64,000 nt of DNA from a bacterium (GTDB taxonomy: Bacteria; Patescibacteriota; Microgenomatia; JAMCZE01), in NCBI GenBank assembly GCA_021836035.1, contig JAKBJL010000003.1, forward strand, positions 4,135 to 68,134. The letters run 5' to 3'. The notes beneath the pieces are model-generated. The model ran no database searches. It was not told the origin of the DNA and was given only the letters and a program-made list of their open reading frames with translations. Shown here piece after piece: positions 2,075 to 29,608 of the stretch. The translations under genes were made by a program, and so were the position numbers. Position 1 is the first letter of the stretch. Every line of letters starts with the position of its first letter.

Positions 2075-3902
2075 AATTAGCAATCACTTTTGTTAAATCA
2101 AAGATAGTGTACGGATTGTTAAAAGAATTTACTACTGTAAGCATATCATTAATATCAACTTTGCCGTCCAGATTATAGTCTCCCGGAATTCCTCCGGTTG
2201 TCACTGTGCTGGGGGCTGATTGGGCTGATTCGTTTCCGGCATCATCGGTGGCCGAAACCGTATAAATATAAGAAGTTTGGGGGAGGATACTCAAGTCTGA
2301 ATAGGAGCAGTTATTATTGGTCGTACAGATTTGCCCAAGAGTTTTTAAAGCCGCTCCATTACGGTAGATTTTATAACCGGTTGGACCGTTAGAACCGGTA
2401 TTATCATAAGAGCCGATCCAGGAAAGATTAACCAGATTGGAATTTGCCAATCCCGCTTTAAACGACCTGGGAACCGACGGAGGTATAGTATCCGGTCCGT
2501 AATCGTCGGGTGGTTCTAGGTATATCGGTGTGCCCGTTCGTTTTAAGACGAACGCGCCGAATTCCGAAGAAGTATGGGTGACCGAAAGGGTTGGGACTGT
2601 TGGTTGGGCAACAGCCGTCCCCGTCATGGGAATGGTAATCGATCCGCCCCGATAAGTTCCCGAGGCAATCGCCGGGCCCAAATAATCTTGAACATCTTTT
2701 ACTTCGTAACTGTCGCCGATTTGTAAAATATTGGAGACATCGACATCAACACTTGAAACATTGGCCCAATTAAAAACAGTAATATTAGCTCTGCCCTGTT
2801 CATATTTGTTGGGCCGAACAAAAATACTGTTGGTGGTTGGCCGGGCGGAATAATAGGTGTTGTTGGGATAGGTACTTTGTAGGGAACTAACGGAACCATA
2901 AAATGTATTGCCGGTGACGGTAATATCACTGCAATTAACAAAAGTAATTAAGGAACTGCCGCGGGCGATATAGTTACCCGGCCCGACTTGCGGATGATGG
3001 CAACCCGTACTGTAACCAAGATTTATTCCCGTACCGGAAGACCCGGAATAATAAAGATAATTATCTTTTATGATTGGCCATTCCGCTAAGTCCGGCTGAT
3101 TGCCGCCAATTAAAATATTGGCTTTATTTGAGCCGCCGAGACTGCCGCTTTTAAAAATAGTATTGCCGGCGAGATTAAAGTAATTAAGGTAGCTCCCCGA
3201 AGCATAAGCATGAAAACCGTAGGCATAGGAATTGAGAATCATGTTATTGGTGATATATTTGGTGCTGTTGGCATTTTGGGCATAAATACCGTGCTGAAGG
3301 TTGGAAGCGCCGTTGTTATAAAAGATGTTCCCGTAGACCTCGGAATCGTTATGGCCATTAGCAAAAAACATGCCGATGCCGTTATCATGAATGACTAAAT
3401 TAACAATTTTATTATTATGGCCGGGCGCGCCGGGAACCACTCCTGTTACCCGATTAAAACTGCAATCGGGTGCGGCGCAACCAAGGAGAGGACTGGAGTT
3501 CGTTACTTCAAAACCCCGGTAAATAGTATAACTGCCCTCAATTTCGAAAAAACCCTCGGTATTGGCTGGCATCATTGCCGCCGAGGCCCGGTCAACTATC
3601 GCCCATTCACCCGGGTAAGATTGAACTTTAATATAATTGCTTGCGGAACCGGCAAGTGAGGAATGATAATAAATGCTCTGATTGTAAGTGCCGCCACGTA
3701 AGTTAAGCGTGTCTCCCGGGATAATTTTCCCGTTACCTCCGTGAAGAGCCGTTTGCAAGTCCCAGGGATTATTTATTGAGCCATCGCCAAGTGAACTTCC
3801 CCCGGGTGAAACAAAATAGTCAGCGGCAAATACCACCGTAGGAAGCAGCAGGTAGAGGGTGGTAAAAAGCGGAACAATAAAATAACTAAGTAATATTTTC
3901 AT
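2064..3902 (-). CDS. Secreted right-handed parallel beta-helix protein (pectin-lyase-like fold) with FN3 and C-terminal dockerin-like tag
   Basis: Signal peptide ending VVFA; YFVSPGG..GDGSINNPW; PGDTLNLRGGTY; Asn/Gly-rich repeats; FN3 motifs (GYKIYRNG, YTVSATDDAGNES); C-terminal GDYNLDGKVDINDML...IFDLTKVIANYGK. Confidence 0.85.
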   Translation of the reverse strand: MKILLSYFIVPLFTTLYLLLPTVVFAADYFVSPGGSSLGDGSINNPWDLQTALHGGNGKIIPGDTLNLRGGTYNQSIYYHSSLAGSASNYIKVQSYPGEWAIVDRASAAMMPANTEGFFEIEGSYTIYRGFEVTNSSPLLGCAAPDCSFNRVTGVVPGAPGHNNKIVNLVIHDNGIGMFFANGHNDSEVYGNIFYNNGASNLQHGIYAQNANSTKYITNNMILNSYAYGFHAYASGSYLNYFNLAGNTIFKSGSLGGSNKANILIGGNQPDLAEWPIIKDNYLYYSGSSGTGINLGYSTGCHHPQVGPGNYIARGSSLITFVNCSDITVTGNTFYGSVSSLQSTYPNNTYYSARPTTNSIFVRPNKYEQGRANITVFNWANVSSVDVDVSNILQIGDSYEVKDVQDYLGPAIASGTYRGGSITIPMTGTAVAQPTVPTLSVTHTSSEFGAFVLKRTGTPIYLEPPDDYGPDTIPPSVPRSFKAGLANSNLVNLSWIGSYDNTGSNGPTGYKIYRNGAALKTLGQICTTNNNCSYSDLSILPQTSYIYTVSATDDAGNESAQSAPSTVTTGGIPGDYNLDGKVDINDMLTVVNSFNNPYTIFDLTKVIANYGK

Positions 3903-3903
3903 C

Positions 3904-4429
3904 TCATTTTCCGAAATTGGAAATTACCCCGGTGAGGGTAAAGATATTATAGGGATTACCAAAATGGATAATCGCTTCCGGTAAATCATAGATATCTACC
4001 CGCCTGTCGCCGTTTAAGTCTCCAGCAAGGCTTGCGTTTCCCCGGACCGCTTTTACCGGGTCGGTTAAGCCGGAAATATCTTCCGGTGAGGATGCCCAAA
4101 TACCGATTTGCCCGGTTAAATCATTTAACTGTTTTGTTGGTACCATTCTTATCGTTTACCGAAGCGGGGTCAGTAATTTCCCGGTCATAATTGGCAATCG
4201 CCGGGTCAGTCGCCCAGGCAAAAATATTTAATGGTGGGTAAGGCAGAAGACCAAAACGGAGGTTAAGGTAATTGTTTAATGCCGAACTAAGAGGAGAGGC
4301 GTAATTAGAAAAACCCCGAGCTGAAATGGAAAGAGCAAGTCTTTCGGAAACACCCGATATTGCCAGCCAAAAGCTAAGGACTGATAATAAACGGCTGACT
4401 GATGAAACACCCTTCATAGGTTTTCCCAA
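3904..4429 (-). pseudogene. Fragmented secreted protein retaining a C-terminal dockerin-like tag
   Basis: Two overlapping short frames (4121..4429 and 3904..4146); the second ends GDLNGDRRVDIYDL...IFTLTGVISNFGK; much shorter than neighbouring tagged genes. Confidence 0.6.
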
Positions 4430-9759: not shown

Positions 9760-9760
9760 T

Positions 9761-9911: not shown

Positions 9912-9925
9912 TTTAAAATTAAAAT

Positions 9926-15434: not shown

Positions 15435-17837
15435 ATGGGGCGAAATCTCCGTGTTAAATTTTTTTTAGTAATTACCTTCTTTTTGGCGTTTGTAAAACCG
15501 GTTTGGGCCGCGGATGTTTTCAGCGATAACTTCGAAAATGGTTTGGGGAATTGGCAGATAACGGCTCTGGGAAATGCGGTGGTAAATACTGCTCTGGACA
15601 CCGATCCCGGCTCTACCCATGGCAATATCCTCCATGTTTATTATCCGGGAAATAACTCCGATATCAAAATTATTTTAAAGAATTTAACTAGCTTAATTTA
15701 CGGCAAATCGAATTTAGTGTATGAGGTTGACTTTTATGACGACCCGGCCAGGGATTACGGAATTAGTTTTTATGTTCGCGATGCCTCAGGCAGATACCTG
15801 GAATTTATTGTTGATAGCCTTACCGGAAATTACCGTTTGCGAAATGATTACGGCGCGCAATCTAAATATTTTGATACCCGGATAAGCCGCAAATTAGGCT
15901 GGCATAAAATCCAGATTATCGTCAGCAGCGCGGGTGCCTATCTGGTAATTGACGGCCAGAATTCCGTTTACCTCCGCGGGCAGATTGCTTATCCCAACGT
16001 GAGTGAGATAGATTTCCCCATCTTTAACGGGCTCACGGGAATTTCCGAGGTCGGAATCGAATACCCCGCGTGGAATAAACCCGCCGGTAACAGTTACTGG
16101 GATAATTTCCGGATTTATGAACTCCGACCCCAGGCGAAAACTACTTCCCAAAAAGAGGAAGATTTAATTCTCGAATACCTGAATAGTTACGAGAGCAATC
16201 TCGGCAATGCCAATTTTCTAAACGCCGAGACTACCCTAAAAGGAATTCAGAATTTTCAACTTTCGCGCCTGGGTTTGGCAGCGGCCTATGGGGTTCGTTA
16301 TAGCGCCGGCGGCGATGTTAACGACCTGGCTAATCTGAAAAAGTATTTAACCGCCGTTATCAACGACTATTGGGCTGCCGGGGGTTGGAAAGGGCAACAA
16401 TCGGAAACGCCAATATCCGGCCAGGTTATAGCCGCCATTGCTTCCTGGCAGTGGAGCAACCTGGATACGACTCTCCGGAACAAAATTTCCGGAATATTGA
16501 ATGATATCGGCACCAATACGAACAAAAATAATTGTATAAGCTCCATGGCGGCAGGTTATGATAATAATCAGATTTCGGATAGCCGAGGAGAGGAATTTGC
16601 CTGGATTGCTTCCTACCTTAAATTTGTCTCCGATGTTTATCAGGATAAATCGGATACCCCGTCTTGCGGGGTCAACGATCCGGCTTTAACTAAATGGAGT
16701 GTGCGGGCAGCTAACTTCGCCTGTGTATCGACGACCCATGCACTTGCGACCGATCCTACTAAAATCGACCCGGGCGATATTTGTACCAGCAACCAGGCGG
16801 TCATGCCCCCCAATCCCTCCTTAACAAGTGCCTTTATCATGCGCAATCACGGAATTGATCATCCGGGTTATGCTTTGACTATTGCCTGGGGGTTGGCCCA
16901 GGCGCAACTTTATCAACTGAACCAGGGGAAAACCGAAAGCCAAATCGAAACTGATTATCGGAGGAATTTTGGTAACTTCTACACCAACAATATCTCCAAC
17001 CTCGTCCGCTTTAATAATTATTCCTATAAACCACTTACGCCGGCGGACATGATCTTTGCCTATACAGGGAAAGACGATTGGGATCAGGATGCGACGCTTC
17101 AAGATCAGGCTTGGGCCTACTTTGACATTATTTTTAAGAATCGGCCCGGCTGGAATTGGACAAATAAGCTTGACGGGATAGTTAATTATGCCTGGTTAAC
17201 ACGGGGCGGCAAAGCTTTTTATCCTCCCCTTGTTGACGGAGATTTAGCGGCCCATTGGCTTGAGCCGGAGGTAATTTCCTGCGGTCCGGGATCCTGCAAC
17301 GCTTACAAGATGAACAGCGCTCTCTATTTTTTTCTAAATTCCATGGACGCTATTGACCGCTTTGAAACACTGTTTATTATTAATCCCTCGGTTTATCCCT
17401 TGCATCTGATTTGTACTCCCAGTACCAGTTGCGGAACTAAAAACTGTGGGACAATACCTGACGGCTGCGGAGGCACCCTAAATTGTGGTCCAACCACACG
17501 GGCCTGTACGGCTGCCTTTGGGACCTGCTCTGTTACCGGAACCCAATCCTGCCAAGTCGATAATACCTACAGTCTAACCTGCACCGCTACTGATCCAAGA
17601 ACGGCCAACTGTGTCGGGAAGAACTGTGGCACTGACGGTTGTGGAGGGGTCTGTGGTACTTGTACCCTGCCCCAAGTCTGCGGCGGGGGGGGAACCCCGA
17701 ATGTTTGTGCTCCTCTCCCCGGAGATCTAAACGGAGACGGGAAAGTAAATATTACCGACCTAAAACAGCTTTTATCTTCCTTTACCAATATCTTCAATTA
17801 CAATTTAGTCGTGGCCAATTTCGGCGAAACCCAATGA
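15435..17837 (+). CDS. Secreted multidomain protein: lectin-like beta-sandwich, helical putative catalytic domain, Cys-rich linker, dockerin-like tag
   Basis: Signal peptide ending PVWA; FSDNFENG...WHKIQI...YWDNFRIY; CGTIPDGCGGTLNCG; GDLNGDGKVNITDL...YNLVVANFG. Confidence 0.85.
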   Translation: MGRNLRVKFFLVITFFLAFVKPVWAADVFSDNFENGLGNWQITALGNAVVNTALDTDPGSTHGNILHVYYPGNNSDIKIILKNLTSLIYGKSNLVYEVDFYDDPARDYGISFYVRDASGRYLEFIVDSLTGNYRLRNDYGAQSKYFDTRISRKLGWHKIQIIVSSAGAYLVIDGQNSVYLRGQIAYPNVSEIDFPIFNGLTGISEVGIEYPAWNKPAGNSYWDNFRIYELRPQAKTTSQKEEDLILEYLNSYESNLGNANFLNAETTLKGIQNFQLSRLGLAAAYGVRYSAGGDVNDLANLKKYLTAVINDYWAAGGWKGQQSETPISGQVIAAIASWQWSNLDTTLRNKISGILNDIGTNTNKNNCISSMAAGYDNNQISDSRGEEFAWIASYLKFVSDVYQDKSDTPSCGVNDPALTKWSVRAANFACVSTTHALATDPTKIDPGDICTSNQAVMPPNPSLTSAFIMRNHGIDHPGYALTIAWGLAQAQLYQLNQGKTESQIETDYRRNFGNFYTNNISNLVRFNNYSYKPLTPADMIFAYTGKDDWDQDATLQDQAWAYFDIIFKNRPGWNWTNKLDGIVNYAWLTRGGKAFYPPLVDGDLAAHWLEPEVISCGPGSCNAYKMNSALYFFLNSMDAIDRFETLFIINPSVYPLHLICTPSTSCGTKNCGTIPDGCGGTLNCGPTTRACTAAFGTCSVTGTQSCQVDNTYSLTCTATDPRTANCVGKNCGTDGCGGVCGTCTLPQVCGGGGTPNVCAPLPGDLNGDGKVNITDLKQLLSSFTNIFNYNLVVANFGETQ

Positions 17838-19765
17838 AGAGAATAATTTTTATTTTGTTCTTGGGAATATTTTTACTCCAGGGAAAAAAGGTCTTTGCCG
17901 CGGGATTTGCTGCACCTGCAAGGATATATGCCTCTTCGGAACTGCAGGTATCCGGGTACAACTGGAGCGCTCAAAATGTCCTGGACAACAATCCCCAAAC
18001 TGCCTGGTCGTCTAAACAACTATCCGGTCCGGATAATTCTGAATGGTTGACTTTTGATTTCGGCACTCCCGTATCCCTGGCTAAAATCATAGTCACGCCC
18101 AGAGTTTGGCAAAATCGCATTCAGGCTTTCCCGAAGGCTTTCAATATCGGCTACAGCGACGATGGCTCTACCTGGAAAATTATTCCCGGCTTTGATTTTC
18201 AAAGTTTTCCTGACCCCCAACCTAACTCTGATGGTACCGCGCCACAACTGCCATTTCCTGTTAACTCTACATATCGTTTTTTTGGCCTCGGTTTTTCCAA
18301 AGCTACCACTGACAGCTATGGGGGTTATTTTATTCAGCTGGCCGACGTCCGTTTTCTTACTAGCGAATGCACATTGGACAGCGATTGTTCCGCCGGCCAA
18401 TCCTGCCGGCAGGGAGTTTGCGGTGTCAACACTTTACCGTACTGGAATTTAAAGCCCGGCAGCTACTGGATTTTGTCCGGTACCGATAATTATAGCGGCA
18501 TTCCGCTTTCTTTTCGGCAAAGATACGATTTGGAATTACCGGAAAATATCTGCACTGACGGGTCAAACAAGAGTGTCTTAACCTGGCGCGTTACCCGAGA
18601 TGTCGCTTGCCCCTATCCCCACCAATGTTATTGGGGTAATTTAAGATTTATGTTCGTCGATCCGACAGTTGACACCAGCCCTTTTATCTGGGCCACCGCA
18701 GATAAGCGCTATACACGTAACCCGGACAGTCCATTTGCCGATATCGGTACTCTTTACCAACACAGTTATTTTAGCGGACGGTTGGATACCTCCCAACCGT
18801 ACGTGCCGCCCTATCTTTATTCGCCCAAATTCCTTCCGGGCTTAGGCAATAATCTCGAATACCGCTACAACCAAAACTATTATTGGAACTATGGCCAGCC
18901 CGGGATACCAATCGCCGATGAGAACATGTGCCGTGATACCTCGCTCGGCCGTGACCAGGCAGATTTGATTATGAGATACCAATTGACCGGCATAAATACC
19001 CCGGCGTATCATGGTCCGGCTTTATTAGTCAGTCAGGGGGAGAAGTCAAGCTGGTGTACTAGGGAAGATTGGTACTTAGCACCCAACATCGGCATTTCCA
19101 GGGTTGACCAGTGGAATTGTAATACTACCGGAAATTCCTGTTATGACGGACAGCATTTCGGCAGTTGTAACTGCAATTCCTGGACCATTGATTCCGGAAA
19201 TCACCCGAACTGCTATCAGAATTTGGCTCTACAGGATCCTGCGATGAGCATGTCCCTGGTTAAATATTATCTTGGCCATGCCTTGCAGGCTTCGGTCAAC
19301 AACACCACTTCCGTCCAAACTAACGCAAGGCAAACATTGGCTTTTAACTTTATAGATCCTTCAACCAACTTTACCTATGAGGGGCAGCTGGATACGGAAA
19401 ACAGTTTTATTTCTCCCGACGGTAATTCCCTCGTTGCTGCTGGGAAATGGAATACTTGGGTCGGAACGGACGGCAAAGTGACTATGACCATTGGCCAAAA
19501 TATTCTTCCCGGTACCTACCGCACTCGCTTCCGCCCTCATTTTTTCAGTTCGCCTGACAGCGCCTTACAAACTAATGCCGAATCTGTTACCGGGCAAAAC
19601 AACCTTCCCTGGAGCAACGAAGTAACTCTAACTATCAATCCGATTCCCGGCGACTTAAACGGCGACGGCCAGGTTAATATCGCCGATTTACGGGCCTTGC
19701 TCGGAAACTTTTCCGGCATCTTCAATTACAATTTAGTCGTGGCCAACTTTGGCAAAACCCAATGA
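17834..19765 (+). CDS. Secreted protein with F5/8 type C (discoidin) domain and dockerin-like tag
   Basis: ATGA overlap with the previous gene; signal ending KVFA; ASSE...NVLDNNPQTAWSS...EWLTFDFG...YSDDGSTW; GDLNGDGQVNIADL...VVANFG. Confidence 0.85.
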   Translation: MKRIIFILFLGIFLLQGKKVFAAGFAAPARIYASSELQVSGYNWSAQNVLDNNPQTAWSSKQLSGPDNSEWLTFDFGTPVSLAKIIVTPRVWQNRIQAFPKAFNIGYSDDGSTWKIIPGFDFQSFPDPQPNSDGTAPQLPFPVNSTYRFFGLGFSKATTDSYGGYFIQLADVRFLTSECTLDSDCSAGQSCRQGVCGVNTLPYWNLKPGSYWILSGTDNYSGIPLSFRQRYDLELPENICTDGSNKSVLTWRVTRDVACPYPHQCYWGNLRFMFVDPTVDTSPFIWATADKRYTRNPDSPFADIGTLYQHSYFSGRLDTSQPYVPPYLYSPKFLPGLGNNLEYRYNQNYYWNYGQPGIPIADENMCRDTSLGRDQADLIMRYQLTGINTPAYHGPALLVSQGEKSSWCTREDWYLAPNIGISRVDQWNCNTTGNSCYDGQHFGSCNCNSWTIDSGNHPNCYQNLALQDPAMSMSLVKYYLGHALQASVNNTTSVQTNARQTLAFNFIDPSTNFTYEGQLDTENSFISPDGNSLVAAGKWNTWVGTDGKVTMTIGQNILPGTYRTRFRPHFFSSPDSALQTNAESVTGQNNLPWSNEVTLTINPIPGDLNGDGQVNIADLRALLGNFSGIFNYNLVVANFGKTQ

Positions 19766-22269
19766 GAAAATTTTATCTACTCTCGTGTTTGCTTTTTGTT
19801 GGCATTTTTGTATCCGCGCGGCCGGTTTTTTCCCAAATTACCCTTCCGCCGACAGATCGGGTTGATACTCACACTTTCGTTGTCTTTAATGGCAAGCTTC
19901 GGGAGCTGGTTATCAAAGGCGACAGGGTTTGGTGGCGCGATTCTGCCGACACAACGGAAAAAAGTTTTCCGGCGAACTGGAGTTCTAAATCTTTAGCCGA
20001 AGCTTGGCCGGCAAGTATTTCTCCGATTGGCCACCCCTTGCCTATCTCGGGTATAGACGCCCATGCTTATCAGCGGTTTCCCGGTTGCGGTAATTTCGCC
20101 AATTTTGTCACGGAAATTGTCATTAAGGGTAATGAAGAATGGTACCGCCGGTCATCGGATATCACCGGGAGCGACCTTGGGGGTAAAGTTTTCACCTATA
20201 CCACTCTGCCCGCCGTTTGGGGGAATTCCGGACCGCCGACCGATTTTATTGACGCTTTGAACTATGATATTTTCGACGGAAATCCGCGGGAGTTGGTTCT
20301 TAAGGGCGGTAATATTTGGTACCGGACTATAAATTGTGCCAATTCCCAGCTATCCGGCTGGTCTCAAGTCAGTTTATCTTCGGCTTGGGGGTCTAACCTA
20401 AATCCACCACCTTTAACTGGCGCCATAGATACTTATGCCACAGATTACGCTGCCTCGGACAACTCTTGGGAAATTGTCACCCAAGGTAATCGGGTTTGGG
20501 CGAGACGTTCCTTTGACACTAACAGCCACCACGAAAGTGATGTTTGGCGACCGATGACCTTAAGCGATCTCTGGCAGAGGAATTCTATTTCTCTTTCAGA
20601 TTCCGATATAGCCAGTCGGTTCATTGATAAATTTATGTCAATTTATGGCAGCACTGATTTTTCCGCTGTCATAAATTATCCTTATGCCAGCGCCTTTGAT
20701 TCCCAAAATAATTTCCGGGCTCTTATGGGTCAAGCTTTAGCGCACACCGTCAAATTCCGTTTAAGTAATAATTCTTCGGTATCCGATTTGACAAAGGCGA
20801 AAAGTTACCTCAACGCGACCCTCGACCACTATTCGACGTGGGGCAAAGATTTTCTCTCAGAAGATATTATCCGAAGTACCCTTCTTGCTTCGTGGGTAAT
20901 TTGGGACCAACTGTCGGATGTTGAAAAAGCCAATATTTACAACGTAGCTAAAGCTGATGCCGACTTCTGGTCAGCTAAATTGGCCGAAGCTCAAGCTGGT
21001 GGCCCCTTCTTATTTAAAATGCAGCGGGACTGCCAAGATCCTAACAGCCAGTGTTATTACAACACCAGCGCTGAAGAGAACGGAGGAATTGTGGGCGGGC
21101 TTGCGTTTACGGCTATTATGTATCCGAATGACCCGTCAGCCTGGAAATGGCAACAGGCGGCGAGATGTTTTGCTTTCCACACGATTACTACCGGAGAAAC
21201 TTCCTGCGGAATAACTACGCAGACAGTGGCCAGTGACTTTAGTTTGACCGAACACGGCTTCACCCCCTCGGTTGTTTATACTTTAGCCGCTCTTTCCGAG
21301 CTCGATCAGGCTGGTTTGGGCTACTTTCTCGGCGGATATTATACCCCGCCAGAACTTCACCATAACACGGCCCCTCTTTGGTCCAAATTTTTCACTTATT
21401 TTCATCCGGGAGATTACACTATCTATAATCAATATTTTCGGGGGCAGGACTGGGGCGATATTGATGTTTGGCTGGCTATGACCGATTTTAATTATTTGTC
21501 TTTAATTGACAATCCTTCAGGGTTAAGCGCTGCAAATGTAGGGAATCTAGCTTTTGACATCACGCATTATTTTTACACGATAAAGAAAGACGATCTGCGT
21601 TTTCCTGAAGCCGGACCCGTGATCTCCATGCCGGTAACGGGAACCACCACGAGCAGTTGGTTTCAAAATTCTTTAACTCACGCCAAGGGTTCTGCGGAAA
21701 TAATCATTTACCAAAACCCCGGATATTTCTTTTGTAACGGCAATGTTGACCGGCTTGGCCGGTCAACCCATTTGTGTAACAGTGCCGTCCCGGTACAGAC
21801 TTTTCCGACCTGCACCGCCACTACTTGTACCGCCCAAGGCAAAAACTGCGGGACGATTTCCGACGGCTGCTGGGGAACTTTAAACTGCGGTGCCTGTGCT
21901 GCCACCCATTCCTGTGTCAGTAATGTCTGTACCTGTGATCCGGCCAAATGTACTCTTCCCAATACCTGCAATAACAATGTTTGTTCCTGCATCCCGGAAT
22001 CAGATGTTGCTTTCTGTTCCCGTTTGGGAAAAAACTGCGGCAGTGTGACCGCAGCGGATAACTGCGGAACCCAAAGAACGGTAAGTAGCTGTGGCGGTTG
22101 TAATTTACCCGACGTCTGCGGCGGGGGAGGAACACCAAACATTTGCGGATCCCTCCCGGGAGATCTAAACGGAGACGGGAAAGTCAATATTTTGGATCTG
22201 CGCCAACTTCTTTCCGGCTCCGATACTATTTTCAGTTACAACACCGTGGTGACAAACTTCGGGAGGTGA
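19762..22269 (+). CDS. Secreted protein with repeated N-terminal beta modules, a helical domain paralogous to 15435..17837, Cys-rich linker and dockerin-like tag
   Basis: Four repeats of the type ELVIKGDRVWWR; AEENG/EHG/DWGD motifs; GDLNGDGKVNILDL...VVTNFGR. Confidence 0.85.
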   Translation: MRKFYLLSCLLFVGIFVSARPVFSQITLPPTDRVDTHTFVVFNGKLRELVIKGDRVWWRDSADTTEKSFPANWSSKSLAEAWPASISPIGHPLPISGIDAHAYQRFPGCGNFANFVTEIVIKGNEEWYRRSSDITGSDLGGKVFTYTTLPAVWGNSGPPTDFIDALNYDIFDGNPRELVLKGGNIWYRTINCANSQLSGWSQVSLSSAWGSNLNPPPLTGAIDTYATDYAASDNSWEIVTQGNRVWARRSFDTNSHHESDVWRPMTLSDLWQRNSISLSDSDIASRFIDKFMSIYGSTDFSAVINYPYASAFDSQNNFRALMGQALAHTVKFRLSNNSSVSDLTKAKSYLNATLDHYSTWGKDFLSEDIIRSTLLASWVIWDQLSDVEKANIYNVAKADADFWSAKLAEAQAGGPFLFKMQRDCQDPNSQCYYNTSAEENGGIVGGLAFTAIMYPNDPSAWKWQQAARCFAFHTITTGETSCGITTQTVASDFSLTEHGFTPSVVYTLAALSELDQAGLGYFLGGYYTPPELHHNTAPLWSKFFTYFHPGDYTIYNQYFRGQDWGDIDVWLAMTDFNYLSLIDNPSGLSAANVGNLAFDITHYFYTIKKDDLRFPEAGPVISMPVTGTTTSSWFQNSLTHAKGSAEIIIYQNPGYFFCNGNVDRLGRSTHLCNSAVPVQTFPTCTATTCTAQGKNCGTISDGCWGTLNCGACAATHSCVSNVCTCDPAKCTLPNTCNNNVCSCIPESDVAFCSRLGKNCGSVTAADNCGTQRTVSSCGGCNLPDVCGGGGTPNICGSLPGDLNGDGKVNILDLRQLLSGSDTIFSYNTVVTNFGR

Positions 22270-22291
22270 ATTTTGTGCTAAAGTTAAATTA

Positions 22292-23500
22292 ATGGGCAAA
22301 AGCGTAGGTTTTGTTTTGCGGGTAGTTTTCGTCCTTTCTTTTCTTTCGGCCTTCTTATTTTTATCCTTGAATCCGGTTCAAGCCTACAACATTTTCAATC
22401 AGAGCCTGCATGAGCAAAACTAACTTTCTTTTATTAAGGCCGTTTCCAACCGCTATATAAATATTAATCCGTTTCCGGACTATACAATAGCCAAAAGCGG
22501 AGGGTTAACTGATTATTACCGGGTAGTTTGCAGCCAGGTGGTCATTAGTTCGATCAGCAAACTGGCGGCAGGGCAACCCCTTTCCGCAAATTCTCCGGAG
22601 ATGGGATTGATGATGGCCAATTTCAATAATGATTTCAACCAAATCGCTAGCCCGAATAATCCTTGGTTCTGGCTGGCCTCCGCCCCCGGATTTGATTGTC
22701 TGATTGCTCTTGACCTTAACCGGGACGTTATCCCGCTTCAGGCCAGAAACGCTGCTCTCGGCGAGATAAATATTCTGGCAGACATTATATACAACCCCTT
22801 TAATCGAATTACCTGCTGATTCGACCTGGTTGATGAAATACACTACAGGAACCTGGAGAAATGAAGCTATCGCTAACTACAATTGGACGTCGGTAAACGA
22901 CGACTACCGCCAGGTTACTACGCTTAATCAATTTGGCCTGACTCTTATGGATTCCTCCGCTTTTATGCCAGCTTTTACCGGCTGGCAATATCAAATTATG
23001 ACGGTGACCGATAGTTACCTGGTTGCTTTTAAGGACATGATTCCGGAAGTCGCCAGGCTGTTAGGTGATTACGTTAAAGCCGATGCGGATATATATATAA
23101 ATAAGATAGCGGCGGCTAAATCCGATTGGTACAGTTCGTTGACAGAATCCTACTACGGAAACGAACATGGTCAGGTCTATCCGGTTGATGCTTATCAGCT
23201 TTTCCTGGCCAGGTCCTGGATCGACAAAGAATCTCCTGATAACCCGCGCATTATTTAAGTATTCCCTATACCCCGGTTGGGGACTTCTTTTATATGCAAA
23301 AGCTGGCCGAGACCATTAAAGCTTACCGGGGTTGGGCCTGGTCTGACGGGGGAGGGCCGACTCCGCCGCTGACCCTTGCCGGAGACCTAAACGGAGATAA
23401 CCACGTCGATATTGCCGATTTAAGAATCGCCATTGCGGGGTTCAGCAATCTTTACAACATATATAGTATCTCGGAAATAATCGGTAATTTCGGTAAATAA
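22292..23500 (+). pseudogene. Fragmented secreted protein with dockerin-like tag
   Basis: Signal peptide MGKSVGF...PVQA then stops and frameshifts (pieces 22538, 22830, 23294); ends GDLNGDNHVDIADL...IIGNFGK. Confidence 0.7.
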
Positions 23501-23565
23501 GCAGAACCATATTGGTACTTGCAATGCATGTGAAAAATTTGCTAGGCTGGAATTAGCCTGTAAAA

Positions 23566-24750
23566 ATGAAAATAACGGAGCGGTTGGGGTTACTTAAGTT
23601 AGCGAAACGCAACTGGACAATGTTGTTGGTGGTTGGAATTCTCCTTATCTCTCTCGTGGCTACAGTTTTTCTGGTTCAGCGACAACAGCAAATGCGGGGT
23701 AAAGCGGCCGGAGCCAGCGTTACTTTAGCTATGTCTTCGGCGGTAAATTCTACAAACCATGCGATGGTAGGAACTCCTTTCACTGTCAATGTATCTATCG
23801 GCAATCAAACGGATGCTTACGAAATTTCCGCCGCTAATGTGGTCGTAACTTATGATTCTAATCTTTTAGACCTGGGTACCAATCCGGTTGCCCTGGGCAG
23901 CTTTTTCCCCTTTCCCAGCGGAACGGAAATGCTTAACAAAGTAGATACGGCAACGGCGGGCAGGGTGAGTTTTGCCTTGGGCGCGGCTTGTCCTACCGTT
24001 ATCCCGGCTCCGACCCCCGTCAACGGCCAAACTCCCTGTTCGACTAATAGAGGCTCCGGAATTTTAGCCACGCTCAATTTCGTCCCCAAAGCGGCCGGTA
24101 CAGCCAATGTGGCTATTATTGCGGATAGCGGTAATACCGCGATAGCGGCTGTCGGGCAGACGGCAACCGTACTGACAAGTACTGCTGTTTCTCCGCTCAG
24201 CCTGCCGATCGATCCCGCGCCGGTGACTACTCCCACCCTTTCCTTCTCGGTGACCGTTCAGGAAGCCATTACGATTCCTACCACCCCCCGCGGAACTATG
24301 GCAGCGAATTTGACTCTTTTAAACCCCACAACCGGTGCCGTTGTTGGCTCTCCGTTTAGTATCACCATGAGCCAAAACAGAACCAGCGGTTTGTATGAGA
24401 CCACCTCTCCGGTTGTTCTAACAGGCATAACTCCCGGCTCTTATCGGGTCATGCTTGATGGGGTAGGGCATTTGAAAAAGGAACTGACAAAGGTTAATGG
24501 TGTTTCTACGCCCGTAAATTTAGTTGGTGGATCCAATACTCCCGACTGGAAGGCCCAACAACTTTTTGGTGGCGATGCGATCAAGGATACGGCAAATACG
24601 GTTAACGCTTTAGATTTCGGGAAACTGGCCGGGGATTTCTTAAACTCTGCTACCCAGGGGACCAGTACGGCAGACTTTAACTTTGATGGCCGGGTGGATG
24701 CGCTGGATTTTGGTGCTTTAGCAGGAAATTTCCTGAAAGCAGGAGATTAA
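23566..24750 (+). CDS. Membrane-anchored cohesin-like protein with C-terminal beta module and two-loop dockerin-like domain
   Basis: N-terminal TM; FTVNV...ISAANVVVTYDSNLL...GRVSFA...GSGILATLNF; GDAIKD..VNALDFG...ADFNFDGRVDALDFG. Confidence 0.8.
   Translation: MKITERLGLLKLAKRNWTMLLVVGILLISLVATVFLVQRQQQMRGKAAGASVTLAMSSAVNSTNHAMVGTPFTVNVSIGNQTDAYEISAANVVVTYDSNLLDLGTNPVALGSFFPFPSGTEMLNKVDTATAGRVSFALGAACPTVIPAPTPVNGQTPCSTNRGSGILATLNFVPKAAGTANVAIIADSGNTAIAAVGQTATVLTSTAVSPLSLPIDPAPVTTPTLSFSVTVQEAITIPTTPRGTMAANLTLLNPTTGAVVGSPFSITMSQNRTSGLYETTSPVVLTGITPGSYRVMLDGVGHLKKELTKVNGVSTPVNLVGGSNTPDWKAQQLFGGDAIKDTANTVNALDFGKLAGDFLNSATQGTSTADFNFDGRVDALDFGALAGNFLKAGD
24231..24750 (+). repeat. 520 bp direct repeat, copy 1
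   Basis: Matches 26866..27385; only one difference seen by eye (24279 T vs 26914 C, synonymous). Confidence 0.92.
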
Positions 24751-24754
24751 GAGA

Positions 24755-27385
24755 ATGGAAAAAATAGCAAGCTGGAAAACGATTGGATTATTGCTAGTTA
24801 CTTTATTAGTTGTTATTGCGGTGCCGCTGACGACCCGGCAGGTTAGTAATCGTCAGGAAACAAGAACCAAAGCGGTTTCTGGCCCCGGGGTAGCGGATTT
24901 AGCTCTCAGTCCGGCAAGTTTAACCTCATACTACACAAGTATAACAACAAACTCAACTTTTGATGTAAATGTTACGCTAGACACCGGTACTACCCCCATA
25001 TATGCCGTTGATGTTGCCTTACAATTTGATCCGACGACCCTTCAGGTAGTACCGGATCCTGCAGTAGCGGGGGGAAATGGTATCACTCCGGGAACTATAT
25101 TAGCTCAGATTCTTTATAATAAAATTGACAATGCTTTGGGTAGAATTACCTTTTCTGCCGGATCTTCGCCTATAGGATCTACTTATACCGGTACGGGGGT
25201 AATAGCTTCAATAAAATTTAGAGCTCTTAAAGCTGTGGCTGCTACCAACGTAACTTTCCTTCCTACAACTTTGGTTTCCGACGTAAATAGTTCAAATATA
25301 TTAGGAACTACAACAAACGGTTCTTATACCATCACTTTAGATACGACAGGTCCCGTCGCGCCCACACCGCAGAGCCCGGCCGATGCCGGTTATCAGGTCA
25401 GCGGCAATGTAAATCTTACCTGGTCCGCCTCAACAGATACCCAAAGCGGGTTTGACCATTATGAACTGCAATATGCTAATAACAGTGCCTTTACCAGTCC
25501 TACCACGGTAAATAATATTACCGCAACTTCTGCCTCCATCAGTTTATCTGCCGATAGCCCTTATTATTGGCAAGTCCGGGCTTATGATAAGTTGGGCAAT
25601 GTCAGCAATTGGAGTTCAGCCTGGAATTTTATTTTAGATACTACCCCCCCGGGAGTTCCCGCTCTTTCCGCACCGGCTAATGGTTATTTACAAACCAGCA
25701 GAACGGTTCCTTTAAGCTGGACGATCCCTACCGATGCCAACGGTATTGCCAGCTATAAAATTCAAGTGGCTAATAATTCCAATTTTACCGGAGCAACGGA
25801 ATATACGGTTACCACAAACAGCTACTCTGTAACCGTCGCTACTGACGGTCAATATTTCTGGCATGTTCAGGCAGTCGATCTGGCCGGGAATAATGGCACT
25901 TATTCTGTCAATCGCAATTTTACGATAGATGGTACGGTGCCGACTTTACCTGGGCTTTTAACTCCGACAAATGCATCTAACCTTAACACTCTAACTCCGA
26001 CTTTTACCTGGAACGCGTCCAGCGATACCGGTTCCGGAGTAGACCATTATGATTTACAGACTTCCCTAACCAGTACTTTTGCCACTCCCACTAACAATCA
26101 AATTGTCGGAACAGCTACTTCCTTTACTTTACCGTCTGGGGTAATTACCGCCGATAACGTCTATTATTGGCGCTTGCAGGCGGCAGACGTAGCTGGCAAT
26201 GTAAGCGGCTGGACTGTTTATCGTAGTATGACGGTAGATACTACTGCCCCCGGAGTTCCTACTCTTAATCCCGTGGCTATTACTGCGGGATCCAGGACAG
26301 TAAGTTTTTCTTGGTCAGTGGTCACAGATAGTGGCAGCGGATTAGCCAATTATGAGATCCAGGTTGATGCGGATAGCTCCATTACACCGCCATATACCTA
26401 TAGTGCGACTCCGACATCAACAACCGCTAGTACAACTTTGTCCGCTGACGGCACCTATTATTGGCACGTCCGGGCTATTGACAAAGCGGGGAATATCGGA
26501 GCTTGGTCAACAGCGCAACCGTTTGGCATTGATATTACACCCCCGACCGCTATCAGTAATCTCTCTGCCGGTTCGCCGACTACCACCTCTGTCGTCTTAA
26601 CCTGGACCGCACCTAATGCTAATCCGGGAAATGGTACCGCTTACGATATTCGCTATTCTACCAGTTCGATTACCGGTACTAATTTCTCTTCAGCTACGGC
26701 AGTTGCAAATCCGCCGACCCCTGCGGCTGCCGGATCGGCCGAATCTCTGACGGTTTCTAATCTTACTCCCGGTACTACTTATTATTTCGCCCTCAAAACG
26801 CAGGATGCAAACAGCAATTGGTCCATTATTTCTAACGTCGTAAGCCTGGCTACCAGCCAGCCGATTCCCACCCTTTCCTTCTCGGTGACCGTTCAGGAAG
26901 CCATTACGATTCCCACCACCCCCCGCGGAACTATGGCAGCGAATTTGACTCTTTTAAACCCCACAACCGGTGCCGTTGTTGGCTCTCCGTTTAGTATCAC
27001 CATGAGCCAAAACAGAACCAGCGGTTTGTATGAGACCACCTCTCCGGTTGTTCTAACAGGCATAACTCCCGGCTCTTATCGGGTCATGCTTGATGGGGTA
27101 GGGCATTTGAAAAAGGAACTGACAAAGGTTAATGGTGTTTCTACGCCCGTAAATTTAGTTGGTGGATCCAATACTCCCGACTGGAAGGCCCAACAACTTT
27201 TTGGTGGCGATGCGATCAAGGATACGGCAAATACGGTTAACGCTTTAGATTTCGGGAAACTGGCCGGGGATTTCTTAAACTCTGCTACCCAGGGGACCAG
27301 TACGGCAGACTTTAACTTTGATGGCCGGGTGGATGCGCTGGATTTTGGTGCTTTAGCAGGAAATTTCCTGAAAGCAGGAGATTAA
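24755..27385 (+). CDS. Membrane-anchored cohesin-like protein with about five FN3 repeats and the shared C-terminal dockerin module
   Basis: FDVNVTLDTG...AVDVALQFDP...GRITFSAG...GTGVIASIKF; repeated YYWxVRAxDxxGN. Confidence 0.85.
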   Translation: MEKIASWKTIGLLLVTLLVVIAVPLTTRQVSNRQETRTKAVSGPGVADLALSPASLTSYYTSITTNSTFDVNVTLDTGTTPIYAVDVALQFDPTTLQVVPDPAVAGGNGITPGTILAQILYNKIDNALGRITFSAGSSPIGSTYTGTGVIASIKFRALKAVAATNVTFLPTTLVSDVNSSNILGTTTNGSYTITLDTTGPVAPTPQSPADAGYQVSGNVNLTWSASTDTQSGFDHYELQYANNSAFTSPTTVNNITATSASISLSADSPYYWQVRAYDKLGNVSNWSSAWNFILDTTPPGVPALSAPANGYLQTSRTVPLSWTIPTDANGIASYKIQVANNSNFTGATEYTVTTNSYSVTVATDGQYFWHVQAVDLAGNNGTYSVNRNFTIDGTVPTLPGLLTPTNASNLNTLTPTFTWNASSDTGSGVDHYDLQTSLTSTFATPTNNQIVGTATSFTLPSGVITADNVYYWRLQAADVAGNVSGWTVYRSMTVDTTAPGVPTLNPVAITAGSRTVSFSWSVVTDSGSGLANYEIQVDADSSITPPYTYSATPTSTTASTTLSADGTYYWHVRAIDKAGNIGAWSTAQPFGIDITPPTAISNLSAGSPTTTSVVLTWTAPNANPGNGTAYDIRYSTSSITGTNFSSATAVANPPTPAAAGSAESLTVSNLTPGTTYYFALKTQDANSNWSIISNVVSLATSQPIPTLSFSVTVQEAITIPTTPRGTMAANLTLLNPTTGAVVGSPFSITMSQNRTSGLYETTSPVVLTGITPGSYRVMLDGVGHLKKELTKVNGVSTPVNLVGGSNTPDWKAQQLFGGDAIKDTANTVNALDFGKLAGDFLNSATQGTSTADFNFDGRVDALDFGALAGNFLKAGD
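26866..27385 (+). repeat. 520 bp direct repeat, copy 2
   Basis: Matches 24231..24750 up to and including the stop codon. Confidence 0.92.
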
Positions 27386-27427
27386 CGGTTGACAGCCCGT
27401 AAAATATTATCATAACATTAACTGAAG

Positions 27428-28090
27428 ATGACAAATATAAATAAAAAAGGAGAGTTGATCACGGTAGGTTTATTAGTAATCGCGGTAGCAGCAGTCAGTT
27501 TGGTGGCAGGGATGGTCTTAGGATTAAATAAAATTAACTTAAAACTACCGGTGACTTCTCAAGTAGAAAATAATCAGGGAAATAATAACGGCAAACCACA
27601 GATTCCGGAAGTACGAAATACTCCTGAAATAAAAAATAAGCCCAAGCTCTCTCTGACCGCTGTTCCGAGCACAATAGCGGTCGGCCAAAATACTAACGTA
27701 ACCATTAATATAGATTCCAACGGGAACAAGCTTCAGGTTGTTCAATTAACCCTGAGTTTTGATCCTAAAAAGCTGAAGGTAGTTGACGCTGATCCTAAGG
27801 CTGCCGGGGTACAGATAGAGCTAAAAAATTTATTTGCTAATCAGAATAACCTTGCGAATCGAGCGGATAACGATAAAGGGAAAATAACCTTAGCCATCGG
27901 TAGCCTGACTAATACTTTTGATGGTAAAGGAGTTTACGGAATAATAAAAATGATCGCTTTGCAACCTACTTCTAGTCCGACGATGATTAGTTTTGACCCA
28001 GACCCAGATACTTTGGTTGTTCCCCAGAGGGCTAATCAGGCTGCCAAAATTGAAGAAGAGCCCTTATCTTTAAGCATTAGCCCTAAATGA
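27428..28090 (+). CDS. Membrane-anchored single cohesin-like domain protein
   Basis: N-terminal TM; VTINIDSNG...LSFDPKKLKVVD...GKITLAIG...FDGKGVYGII; TTGACA at 27389. Confidence 0.8.
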   Translation: MTNINKKGELITVGLLVIAVAAVSLVAGMVLGLNKINLKLPVTSQVENNQGNNNGKPQIPEVRNTPEIKNKPKLSLTAVPSTIAVGQNTNVTINIDSNGNKLQVVQLTLSFDPKKLKVVDADPKAAGVQIELKNLFANQNNLANRADNDKGKITLAIGSLTNTFDGKGVYGIIKMIALQPTSSPTMISFDPDPDTLVVPQRANQAAKIEEEPLSLSISPK

Positions 28091-29577
28091 GAAGATACAT
28101 TTCTTTAATTATCCTAACTCTTTTTCTGCTTGCAGCGGTACCGGCGACCTATTATTTAGTACAAAATAGGCAGTTGTTCTTTAAAAAAGCAGCTCCTACC
28201 GCTACCCTCGCTTTAACTCCGGCTTCTGGAAGCCATGCTGTCGGAGATATTTTTGACGTACAAATAGCGATGGATACCGGCGGGAATCTGGCATTTATGT
28301 CACAAACCTCAATTTCTTATAATCCGTCACTGCTGGATGTCGTTGACGCATCAGGAAATCCAGCAACTTCGATAATTCCCGGAACTGTTTTCCCCAGTCA
28401 ATATGTGGCTACTAATACTGTAAACGCTTCAAGTGGGACAATTATGTTAGCGGTAGGAAGCACTGCGGGATTTAGCGGATCGGGAACGGTAGGAACAATA
28501 AAATTCAAAGTCAAGGCGGCAGGAACTGCTGAGGTCAAATTTAATCCTGCCCCGGATACCTTAATTGGAGGTGCTAATGGAGAAAGTTTAGCCGGTACTC
28601 TAAGTGATGCCAGTTATACTCTAGCCGGCGGTGGAGCGGCGTTGGATTGTACCGGAGTGACGATTTCGCCGGCAGGTAATAATGTTACTTTGGGAGCGAC
28701 CAAGACTCTCACGGCTGCAGCTACCGGAGGAACGGGGACAATTACTTACACCTGGGGGGTTACCAGCCCCGGATCAAATAAGGGTAATTTGACTCCGACT
28801 ACCGGTGCGACGGTAACTTGGACTGCGCCTGCAAACCTTAATTCCGCGCAAACCTGGACAATTACCGCTACAGCCCATGACGATACGACGACCGATTCCA
28901 CCGGTTGTATGGTTAATTTGACCTATACGCCGGTTATTAGTACCCCGACCAATACACCGACCAATATTCCTAGCAGTACCCCGACGGATACACCAACCAA
29001 TACCCCAACCAACACTCCGCCGGTAAGCTCCGCACCCGGCCCGCAAACATATCAGCATAAGACTTGCCAAGCAAATAGCTGTGTCACGGTCGATTGTTCA
29101 CCGAAAGACCATTATTGTGCTGACAGCTGTACCAGCGACAGCGGTTGTACGGGCGGTACCGGAGGTTCGGTAAGCGTGACCATTACCAGTATTGCCCAGG
29201 GCGCGGTTTTAACTAATGCCCGACCGACGGTTGCCGGGAAAGCTTCCCCGGGAGCCAGTGTCCAAGTTACACTTTATCCGGCGCCGACTCAAAGCGGAAC
29301 GATCACGGCGGACGGTGTAGGTAATTGGTCCTGGGTGCCCAATGCCGCGCTGGCTAACGGCGCCCACTCCGCGACGGTGATTGCGACTGACGGGACGGGC
29401 AACCGGACACAAGCGCAGATCGACTTTACCATCAGGACAACCACGGCAAGTACCGGTGGCACGGGGGAGACTACAGGGAAAGTTACCCCACCGGAAACTG
29501 CCTCCTATACGCCGACGGTCGTGATGGCGGTTCTCGGCTTTGCCCTTCTCGGTTTGGGACTGGTTTTGGCTTTGTAG
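28087..29577 (+). CDS. Cohesin-like, Ig-like, Thr/Pro linker and Ig-like protein with C-terminal PETA motif and TM
   Basis: FDVQIAMDTGG...YNPSLLDVVD...FSGSGTVGTIKF; TPTNTPTN repeats; PTVAGKASPGASV...ADGVGNWS; PPETAS followed by a hydrophobic tail. Confidence 0.8.
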   Translation: MRRYISLIILTLFLLAAVPATYYLVQNRQLFFKKAAPTATLALTPASGSHAVGDIFDVQIAMDTGGNLAFMSQTSISYNPSLLDVVDASGNPATSIIPGTVFPSQYVATNTVNASSGTIMLAVGSTAGFSGSGTVGTIKFKVKAAGTAEVKFNPAPDTLIGGANGESLAGTLSDASYTLAGGGAALDCTGVTISPAGNNVTLGATKTLTAAATGGTGTITYTWGVTSPGSNKGNLTPTTGATVTWTAPANLNSAQTWTITATAHDDTTTDSTGCMVNLTYTPVISTPTNTPTNIPSSTPTDTPTNTPTNTPPVSSAPGPQTYQHKTCQANSCVTVDCSPKDHYCADSCTSDSGCTGGTGGSVSVTITSIAQGAVLTNARPTVAGKASPGASVQVTLYPAPTQSGTITADGVGNWSWVPNAALANGAHSATVIATDGTGNRTQAQIDFTIRTTTASTGGTGETTGKVTPPETASYTPTVVMAVLGFALLGLGLVLAL

Positions 29578-29608
29578 ACAGCCGGATTCTGTTGTAATAT
29601 TATCTCCA

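What the first reader, a model, noticed from the sequence alone, without database searches (positions are those of the whole stretch)
15435..29577. Candidate cohesin-dockerin surface assembly system (cellulosome-like architecture) in a CPR bacterium
Seen: four consecutive secreted genes (one broken) end in the same GDLNGDxxVxIxDL...NFG tag, followed directly by four membrane-anchored genes that each carry a cohesin-like beta-sandwich. Two more tagged genes lie at 2064..4429. The cargo domains differ: beta-helix, discoidin, lectin-like and helical putative lyase. Known: cohesin-dockerin pairs assemble enzymes on cell surfaces in cellulosomes. Inference: this is a plug-in display system for glycan-binding or glycan-cutting proteins, possibly aimed at a host envelope. 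Each anchor has only one cohesin, unlike a classic multi-cohesin scaffoldin.
Basis: partly seen in the sequence, partly recalled or inferred. Interest (0 to 1): 0.85.

Follow-up and report, generated by a model that had tools for sequence, protein, structure and literature searches.

The report
Mini-dockerin surface display in Microgenomates
A tiny uncultured bacterium encodes a row of proteins with export signals that end in a shrunken version of the cellulosome 'plug' (dockerin), directly followed by four 'socket' (cohesin) proteins, which likely snap together in two tiers to hold predicted sugar-polymer-binding or -cutting proteins on the cell surface; the parts are known, the shrunken plug is a new variant, and binding is untested.

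Summary
Observation largely confirmed. Three intact secreted genes and one chimeric remnant end in a 36-39 aa tag; four cohesin genes follow (Pfam over cut-off; model of the first matches solved cohesins, Z 16.4). The tag is a dockerin lacking its second calcium loop: homologues of one cargo carry two-loop, one-loop or loop-less versions, and one relative has it at the N-terminus. Cohesins occur in 270 of 401 class genomes, the reduced tag in at least 13; 8 of the 9 genomes with the tag type of this cluster hold a two-cysteine-loop cohesin, the likely receptor. Binding was not modelled (tool unavailable) or measured; a host-envelope target is unsupported. Closest known: Ruminococcus flavefaciens adaptors, ScaE and group-2 truncated dockerins. 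No paper on this in CPR was found; this scan noted the same kind before on other DNA. New variant of a known kind.

The parts
15435..17837 (+). Cargo 1 (P0002, 800 aa): signal peptide, N-terminal beta-rich domain (no Pfam hit), helical domain, Cys-rich linker, short-class tag (17721-17834)
   Evidence: homologues end in two-loop, one-loop or loop-less dockerin
17834..19765 (+). Cargo 2 (P0007, 643 aa): signal peptide, F5/8 type C (discoidin) domain, unassigned domain, short-class tag (19649-19762)
   Evidence: PF00754 E 1e-15; middle domain unassigned
19762..22269 (+). Cargo 3 (P0006, 835 aa): signal peptide, repeat domain, helical toroid-like domain, Cys-rich linker, short-class tag (22159-22266)
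   Evidence: Atlas model likeness to lyase/six-hairpin glycosidase folds, TM 0.55-0.63, no family named; 87% identical to a tagged gene of G003, another genus
22292..22819 (+). 5' remnant of a tagged cargo gene, in-frame stop at 22421
   Evidence: same letters in a second DNA run
22770..23500 (+). 3' remnant of a different cargo gene in two frames, ending in a long-class tag (23381-23497)
23566..24750 (+). Adaptor 1 (P0004, 394 aa): N-terminal hydrophobic helix, cohesin with a two-cysteine loop (23710-24216), X-module and two-repeat dockerin (24238-24747); likely tag receptor
24755..27385 (+). Adaptor 2 (P0005, 876 aa): N-terminal hydrophobic helix, cohesin, about five FN3/Ig repeats, the same X-module and dockerin
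27428..28090 (+). Small single-cohesin protein (P0001, 220 aa) with N-terminal hydrophobic helix
28087..29577 (+). Anchor (P0003, 496 aa): cohesin, Ig-like domains, PT linker, C-terminal PPETA motif plus hydrophobic helix (LPVTG or similar in counterparts)
2064..3902 (-). Tagged cargo (612 aa), beta-helix-like plus FN3-like, long-class tag
   Evidence: (NosD-like hit below cut-off)
3904..4429 (-). Remnant ending in a long-class tag
1..2083 (-). Tagged cargo running off the window (tag at G000:C2:3752-3874), followed outside the window by three more cohesin genes (G000:C2:83-3298)
55184..55873 (-). Sortase, one of four in the genome; link to this system inferred only
   Evidence: PF04203 over cut-off

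Best explanation
The locus encodes signal-peptide-bearing cargo proteins ending in a reduced dockerin and four single-cohesin proteins, and these likely assemble a two-tier surface display: cargo tags are predicted to dock on the adaptor cohesin of 23566-24750, whose X-dockerin would in turn bind a cohesin held in the envelope (28087-29577 or 27428-28090). Shown: cohesin fold, X-dockerin homology, dockerin derivation of the tag, conserved gene order. Inferred: export, every binding step, which cohesin takes which tag, sortase use, and that the cargo acts on extracellular glycans. The tag is a dockerin that lost the linker and second calcium loop but kept two similar helices 13 or 16 residues apart, so it would bind as a compact helical hairpin, one tag per cohesin. 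Cargo cassettes appear to be gained and lost quickly.
For: Cohesin: AF2 model pLDDT 89.6; top 19 VIA rows of 48,161 chains are cohesins, best Z 16.4, rmsd 2.1-2.2 over 133-139 residues, first non-cohesin Z 11.8; Foldseek E 1e-8. X-dockerin: profile of 10 tails hits scaffoldin X-dockerins 4wi0_B, 4u3s_B, 2b59_B at E 1e-12 to 8e-12 across both modules. Tag: best PDB hits are dockerins (2y3n_B, E 1.6e-8); calcium-loop positions 1,3,5,9,12 are D,N,D,D/N,D in 10 of 11 genome copies; second helix repeats the first, better than shuffles in 41 of 44 tags. Interchangeability: of 7 homologues of cargo 1, 4 end in a two-loop dockerin and 3 in a one-loop tag, and a fragment in G014 ends in a loop-less tag. 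Gene order: a tagged gene or remnant lies directly upstream of a cohesin gene in 9 of 13 tag genomes, against 3 cohesin clusters among about 987 ORFs in this genome; the same order with two-loop dockerins in G093, G106, G118, G193 (4 of 6 loci read). Fusion: a tagged cargo of G012 is 47% identical over 314 aa to a domain fused behind the Cys-loop cohesin in G008. Receptor: 6 Cys-loop cohesins were picked by adjacency; two more, unlinked to tags, were then found in tag genomes G060 and G007. 86 of 89 genomes with a dockerin-like match have a cohesin, against 184 of 312 without (hand tally; kin not independent). Truncated dockerins can bind cohesins (PMC12270676).
Against: No binding was measured. 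184 of 312 class genomes have a cohesin but no match to my tag/dockerin profile, so many cohesins may work without dockerins, or my profile misses them. Tags fall below the Pfam cut-off. 16 of 44 tags lack even the first calcium loop, which could be decay. G014 has such tags but no Cys-loop cohesin among its matches (86% complete); 4 tag genomes of the other type (G069, G284, G295, G331) showed none. This genome has 8 long-class tags and the pairing of classes to cohesins is unresolved; the cohesin tree was quick, poorly bounded and mostly unresolved. The anchor here reads PPETA and has no basic tail, a poor LPXTG match. PMC12270676 reports that most artificial truncations lost part or all of their binding. 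3 of 11 tagged loci in the genome are broken. No cargo in the window has a glycoside hydrolase or lyase Pfam hit.
Confidence: 0.66

Rival explanations
1. Same plug-and-socket principle but other wiring: tags bind the envelope-held cohesins (27428-28090, 28087-29577) directly, or two tags share one cohesin as R. flavefaciens group-2 dockerins do on ScaE; the cohesin-X-dockerin proteins would then chain among themselves as spacers.
For: Group-2 dockerins bind the anchoring ScaE cohesin 2:1 (PMC12270676). In G069, G284 and G295 the tagged gene is followed by a cohesin without Cys loop and without dockerin. This genome has two tag classes and ten cohesin domains.
Against: The tag keeps two similar helices, whereas the group-2 module has one recognition helix plus a non-homologous one. 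The Cys-loop cohesin tracks the tag type in 8 of 9 genomes.
Confidence: 0.17
2. The tag is a dockerin-derived module that no longer binds a cohesin: an amphipathic hairpin that sticks cargo to the own envelope, to other cargo or to another cell, while the cohesins serve as stalk or adhesion domains.
For: Cohesins far outnumber dockerin-like matches in the class (270 vs 89 of 401); calcium loops lost in 16 of 44 tags; the cohesin fold is also akin to adhesin and pilin domains (Z up to 11.8); tag arrays in G060, G007, G014 and at G000:C1 lie away from cohesin genes.
Against: Adjacency in 9 of 13 genomes, cargo-cohesin fusion in G008, all 13 tag genomes hold a cohesin, co-occurrence with the Cys-loop cohesin.
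Confidence: 0.12
3. The tag is a C-terminal export or sorting signal (like PEP-CTERM or a type IX secretion tail) that merely resembles a dockerin.
For: 43 of 44 aligned tags are C-terminal, on unrelated secreted proteins, with a conserved final NFG(K/R).
Against: One copy sits directly behind the signal peptide of a GH26-like protein (L065:9024-9122); no transmembrane helix; homologous cargo carries canonical dockerins in the same place; graded series to the two-loop form.
Confidence: 0.05

Closest known systems
Ruminococcus flavefaciens cellulosome anchoring tier: sortase-anchored single-cohesin ScaE, single-cohesin adaptors (ScaC, ScaH) and group-2 naturally truncated dockerins (PMC12270676, PDB 9GVB; PMC2930009)
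   Same: Single-cohesin anchor and adaptor proteins; a dockerin with one calcium loop at the C-terminus of varied proteins; the Cys-loop cohesin profile's best PDB sequence hit is the ScaC cohesin (5lxv_A, E 8e-4).
   Different: Group-2 modules keep one recognition helix plus a group-4-specific helix and have Gly-Arg at positions 10/11; this tag has two repeated helices, Ile-x at 10/11, and exists without any calcium loop in relatives. No multi-cohesin scaffoldin, no cellulase set.
Type II cohesin / X-dockerin anchoring of Clostridium thermocellum CipA and Acetivibrio cellulolyticus ScaA (PDB 2b59, 4u3s, 4wi0)
   Same: The tails of 23566-24750 and 24755-27385 and of counterparts in six other genomes are X-module-dockerin dyads (E about 1e-12).
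   Different: Here the dyad follows one cohesin (plus FN3 repeats), not a string of cohesins with a cellulose-binding module; the cohesin model is closer to type I and non-cellulosomal cohesins.
Non-cellulosomal cohesin-dockerin systems: Clostridium perfringens glycoside hydrolase cohesins (2vo8, 2w1n), Archaeoglobus fulgidus (2xdh); predicted cellulosome-like structures of Cloacimonadota (PMC8542988)
   Same: Cohesin-dockerin modules reused for non-cellulolytic enzymes; 2vo8 is the joint top fold match (Z 16.4).
   Different: Those use full two-repeat dockerins (recalled for C. perfringens and A. fulgidus, not checked); Cloacimonadota has a 3,755-aa multi-cohesin scaffoldin.

Membership tests
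Cohesin (PF00963) | Nine-stranded beta-sandwich matching solved cohesins; Pfam score over cut-off | tested here: met
   All four over cut-off (3 of 4); fold tested for 23710-24216 only
Canonical dockerin (PF00404) | Two repeats, each a calcium loop plus helix | tested here: not met
   For the cargo tags: only one loop, Pfam positions 1-23 of 57, below cut-off. Met for the adaptor tails (25.9 bits over 22.9; 21-22 bits, just under)
Canonical dockerin (PF00404) | Calcium ligands at loop positions 1,3,5,9,12 | tested here: met
   10 of 11 genome tags; one has Ser at position 5. Calcium binding itself not measured
Type II X-module-dockerin dyad | X-module directly before a two-repeat dockerin, homologous to CipA/ScaA tails | tested here: met
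   Profile positions 30-161 hit 4wi0_B, 4u3s_B, 2b59_B at E 1e-12 to 8e-12; the single sequence alone gave only E 0.11
Cellulosome (strict sense) | Primary scaffoldin with many cohesins and a cellulose-binding module | tested here: not met
   Nine cohesin ORFs in the genome, at most two cohesins in one; no CBM3 hit in the window proteins or the three left-cluster proteins
Cellulosome (strict sense) | Dockerin-bearing cellulases and hemicellulases | tested here: not met
   No GH Pfam hit in this genome's tagged proteins. Among 30 proteins from relatives' tag loci: weak GH5, GH26, GH39, polysaccharide deacetylase, beta-helix, S8 and C1 peptidase hits; 15 had no hit at E 1e-6
Cellulosome (strict sense) | Measured high-affinity cohesin-dockerin binding | not testable with these tools
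   Needs ITC, SPR or pull-down
R. flavefaciens group-2 truncated dockerins | Single calcium-binding repeat at the C-terminus | tested here: met
R. flavefaciens group-2 truncated dockerins | Gly-Arg at positions 10/11 and homology to group-4 dockerins | tested here: not met
   Ile-x at 10/11 in 11 of 11; no 9GVB chain among the 60 of 78 PDB hits shown
R. flavefaciens group-2 truncated dockerins | Two dockerins per cohesin | not testable with these tools
   Needs stoichiometry by ITC or a structure
Sortase (LPXTG-type) substrates | LPXTG-like motif, hydrophobic helix, basic tail; sortase in genome | tested here: inconclusive
   PPETA plus helix, no basic tail here; LPVTG/LPQTG-like in counterparts; four sortases in the genome
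Microgenomates (CPR) | Small genome, no uL30, no bL9 | tested here: met
   1.06 Mb, 97.9% complete; neither found (pattern per PMC9297842); a homologue is named from a Microgenomates group bacterium

The most novel reading that the evidence does not exclude
Microgenomates run a class-wide, cellulosome-like plug-in system for their surface, and one set of lineages has shrunk the plug stepwise to a roughly 28-residue two-helix peptide that needs no calcium and is read by its own disulfide-looped cohesin. That would be the smallest natural cohesin ligand, with a binding mode unlike the only characterised truncated dockerins, and it would let enzyme cassettes be swapped between genera as ready-to-mount modules.
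Probability: 0.4. Interest if true: 0.78.

Novelty: new variant of a known kind. Interest (0 to 1): 0.6.

Why it matters
How CPR bacteria, most of them presumed epibionts, equip their surface is an open question. Two thirds of the sampled class carry cohesins (270 of 401), and this locus gives a small, expressible set of domains (40-aa tags, 150-aa cohesins, one X-dockerin) with a named first pair to test. PMC12270676 calls the R. flavefaciens group-2 modules the only known functional natural truncated dockerins and points to short dockerins as tools for designer cellulosomes; a second, differently built and partly calcium-loop-free family would bear on both. The parts and the principle are known, so this is a variant, not a new kind of system.

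Tried and rejected
Single-sequence AF2 of 23710-24747 failed (pLDDT 37); not used. The search for related loci with the tag alignment could not run; with cargo 3 it gave one locus. Cohesin tree: domain bounds too wide, quick method, 25 of 45 forks open; used only as a lead. The Cys-loop profile search scored only its six training genomes high and listed G007 as no match although it has such a cohesin with long insertions, so its blank in other genomes is weak; 24 further loci checked by pattern had no Cys loop. Fisher test is not quoted because kin are not independent. Tag profile over a phylum sample: no full-length match outside this genome in 300 genomes at E 1e-7; not proof of absence, and earlier scan notes report other short dockerins in Parcubacteria and archaea. 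Homologue search for adaptor 1 found only itself. Atlas search for the middle of cargo 2: nothing over TM 0.5 by query. Cargo-1 family profile against PDB hit only dockerins. No RNA holder listed; the one RNA run laid nothing: no evidence on expression. Promoter and terminator scans were near shuffle level. Sequencing error as cause of the broken gene rejected: a contig of a second DNA run spans 21695-24260 without difference (same study). Pilin or isopeptide-stalk reading of the sandwich ranked below cohesins. Paper searches for cohesin/dockerin with Microgenomates, Patescibacteria, candidate phyla radiation, sortase and phylum names listed no paper on such a system in CPR; only listings were seen for most hits, subscription papers are missing, and no supplements were read, where Pfam tables of CPR genomes may list these domains.
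Full report
ORGANISM. The window is G000:C2:4135-68134 of a 1.06-Mb genome, 97.9% complete. uL30 and bL9 were not found, the pattern given for Microgenomates in PMC9297842 (passages); a homologue of the first cohesin is named from a Microgenomates group bacterium. CPR/Microgenomates is therefore well supported.

WHAT IS THERE. Eight units lie head to tail between 15435 and 29577 with gaps of -4 to 65 bp. Three intact genes with signal-peptide-like starts and a broken stretch end in a 36-39 aa tag. A profile from 10 copies finds 11 in the genome at 65-86 bits with the next hit at 15.8: six in the window, one just left of it, three on C1, one on C5. Eight are intact, three are broken. The broken stretch in the finding is two remnants: a 5' piece 75-82% identical to the start of an intact tagged gene of G003, and a 3' piece of another gene; a second DNA run of the same study has the same letters.

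THE SOCKETS. All four downstream genes carry one cohesin over the Pfam cut-off in the genome search (3 of 4). An AF2 model of the first, from a 68-row alignment, has pLDDT 89.6; the top 19 rows of a search over 48,161 chains are cohesins (best Z 16.4, rmsd 2.1-2.2, 133-139 residues), the first other fold scores 11.8. The other three were not folded. The first two also end in an X-module and a two-repeat dockerin: a 10-row profile hits the X-dockerins of cellulosomal scaffoldins at E about 1e-12 over both modules. Their last 471 nt are identical and show double depth. Such proteins read as adaptors. The third is a bare cohesin with an N-terminal hydrophobic helix; the fourth adds Ig domains and a C-terminal PPETA motif plus helix, LPVTG-like in counterparts. 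The genome has four sortases; their use here is inferred. A second cluster of three tagged loci and three cohesin genes lies at G000:C2:83-8289.

THE PLUG. Pfam Dockerin_1 matches only the first third of its model, below cut-off. The calcium-loop pattern is intact in 10 of 11 copies and the best PDB hits are dockerins. The second half repeats the first helix at a period of 13 (25 of 44 tags) or 16 (16 of 44), scoring above shuffles in 41 of 44: the linker and second loop are gone, both helices remain. Relatives show the series: two-loop dockerin; second loop deleted with near-identical helices (G069, G284, G331); both loops gone (16 of 44 tags; G007, G012, G014, G029, G060). Homologues of cargo 1 end in a two-loop dockerin (4 of 7), a one-loop tag (3 of 7) or, in a G014 fragment, a loop-less tag. 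One loop-less tag stands right behind a signal peptide (L065), which argues against a C-terminal sorting signal.

DISTRIBUTION. In 401 genomes of the class, 270 have a cohesin match and 89 match my tag profile; by my reading of the listed spans at least 13 have the full reduced tag (69 weaker matches were not listed), the rest mostly ordinary dockerin repeats. 86 of the 89 have a cohesin, against 184 of the other 312 (hand tally; kin are not independent; these tallies include the unpublished genome G078 as one count). A tagged gene or remnant stands directly upstream of a cohesin gene in 9 of the 13; G331 has the cohesin inside the array on the other strand; G007, G014 and G060 have none adjacent in the stretches read. 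Four of six loci read from genomes without the tag show the same order with two-loop dockerins. In 300 further genomes of the phylum no full tag was found.

THE LIKELY RECEPTOR. The cohesin of 23566-24750 has a two-cysteine loop shared with five cohesins next to tagged genes; these six were chosen by adjacency, so that count is circular. As a test I looked in tag genomes without an adjacent cohesin: G060 and G007 each hold such a cohesin on another contig or region; G014 (86% complete) showed none. That makes 8 of 9 genomes with the IxDLRxLLxxF tag type; the four genomes with the other type showed none in the cohesins read, nor did 24 other loci, but the profile search missed G007, so the negatives are weak. 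In G008 a domain that is a tagged cargo in G012 is fused to this cohesin (47% over 314 aa). Cargo 3 is 87% identical in DNA to a gene of another genus while the cohesins of the two genomes are 32% alike, which points to recent transfer of cargo with its tag.

CARGO. Cargo 2 has an F5/8 C domain. Cargo 1 and 3 share a helical domain (28%) whose Atlas model resembles lyase and six-hairpin glycosidase toroids at TM 0.55-0.63, with no family named. Tagged proteins elsewhere include beta-helix, LamG, weak GH5/26/39, deacetylase, phosphoesterase and S8/C1 peptidase hits; 15 of 30 proteins from relatives had no hit at E 1e-6. Activity on glycans is inferred; nothing here identifies a host envelope as the target.

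MECHANISM. Most likely (0.66): cargo and cohesin proteins are exported; tags dock on adaptor cohesins; X-dockerins dock on envelope-held cohesins. With one cohesin per protein this gives short chains with one enzyme each, spaced by FN3 repeats, not a multi-enzyme scaffold. Shown are folds, homologies and gene order; every binding step is inferred. Rivals: other wiring or 2:1 binding (0.17), a tag that no longer binds cohesin (0.12), a sorting signal (0.05). Against the best reading stand the excess of cohesins over dockerin matches, the loss of calcium loops, three broken loci and the weak sortase motif.

KNOWN SYSTEMS. It works like the anchoring and adaptor tier of the R. flavefaciens cellulosome but fails the strict cellulosome test (no multi-cohesin scaffoldin, no cellulase set). 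The tag shares the single loop with group-2 truncated dockerins but differs in helix make-up and recognition residues (PMC12270676: abstract, first part of Results, first part of Discussion read; PMC2930009: passages). PMC8542988 and bioRxiv 10.1101/2023.11.21.568195 (passages) describe dockerin systems in Cloacimonadota and Omnitrophota, not CPR. Seven searches listed no paper on this in CPR; supplements were not read. This scan noted cohesin-dockerin operons and short dockerins in other CPR genomes before; those notes gave me the group-2 paper and are not independent support. Verdict: real, new variant of a known kind, interest 0.6.

Noticed in passing
G000:C2:83-8289 (window 1-4429 and left of it; L002): Second cluster: remnant, two tagged beta-helix-like paralogues (60% identical), then cohesin-dockerin, two-cohesin-X-dockerin and cohesin with C-terminal hydrophobic helix. 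All tags here are long-class.
   Followed up: partly
G000:C1:162092-166985 (L001): Three tagged secreted genes (beta-helix, LamG) with no cohesin gene seen next to them, downstream of ftsE/ftsX-like genes.
   Followed up: partly
G000:C5:5753-8541 (L003): 892-aa secreted DUF5060 protein whose tag lies in another frame just behind its stop; frameshift near a C run, real or assembly error not checked.
   Followed up: partly
G000:C4:61580-62717 (L024): Pair of single-cohesin genes without tagged neighbours, one ending in LPQTG plus helix and basic tail, the best sortase motif among this genome's cohesin proteins.
   Followed up: partly
window 55184-55873 and three other loci: Four sortases in a 1.06-Mb genome; only a few LPXTG-like tails found by a rough scan.
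   Followed up: no
window 24280-24750 and 26915-27385: Exact 471-bp duplication of the X-dockerin end in two adjacent genes: recent duplication or gene conversion.
   Followed up: yes
window 21779: A contig of run X2 leaves the window sequence here and reads on like the G003 allele that lacks the Cys-rich linker, so a linker-less allele or relative is in that sample.
   Followed up: partly
window 4524-10810: Between the two tagged clusters: two glycogen-synthase-like genes, a GH57-like gene and a GalT/HIT-like gene (labels recalled from the sequences, not searched).
   Followed up: no
window 11500-12040: Broken piece resembling a secreted metallophosphoesterase (recalled likeness, not searched).
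   Followed up: no
window 14078-15334 (-): 418-aa ORF divergent from the cluster, no meaningful Pfam hit.
   Followed up: no
window 29540-30877: Mur ligase gene overlaps the end of the anchor gene; in relatives the cluster sits beside def/fmt or the dnaK operon instead.
   Followed up: partly
L057:124-15256 (G060): Array of nine tagged secreted genes, one-loop and loop-less tags mixed, including S8 and C1 peptidases and a deacetylase.
   Followed up: partly
L063:9453-12249 (G295): Tagged GH5-like protein and its neighbouring cohesin protein share a 66% identical SLH-like region.
   Followed up: no
P0014 C-terminus: A one-loop tail of different sequence on a cargo-1 homologue, perhaps an independent loss of the second loop.
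   Followed up: no
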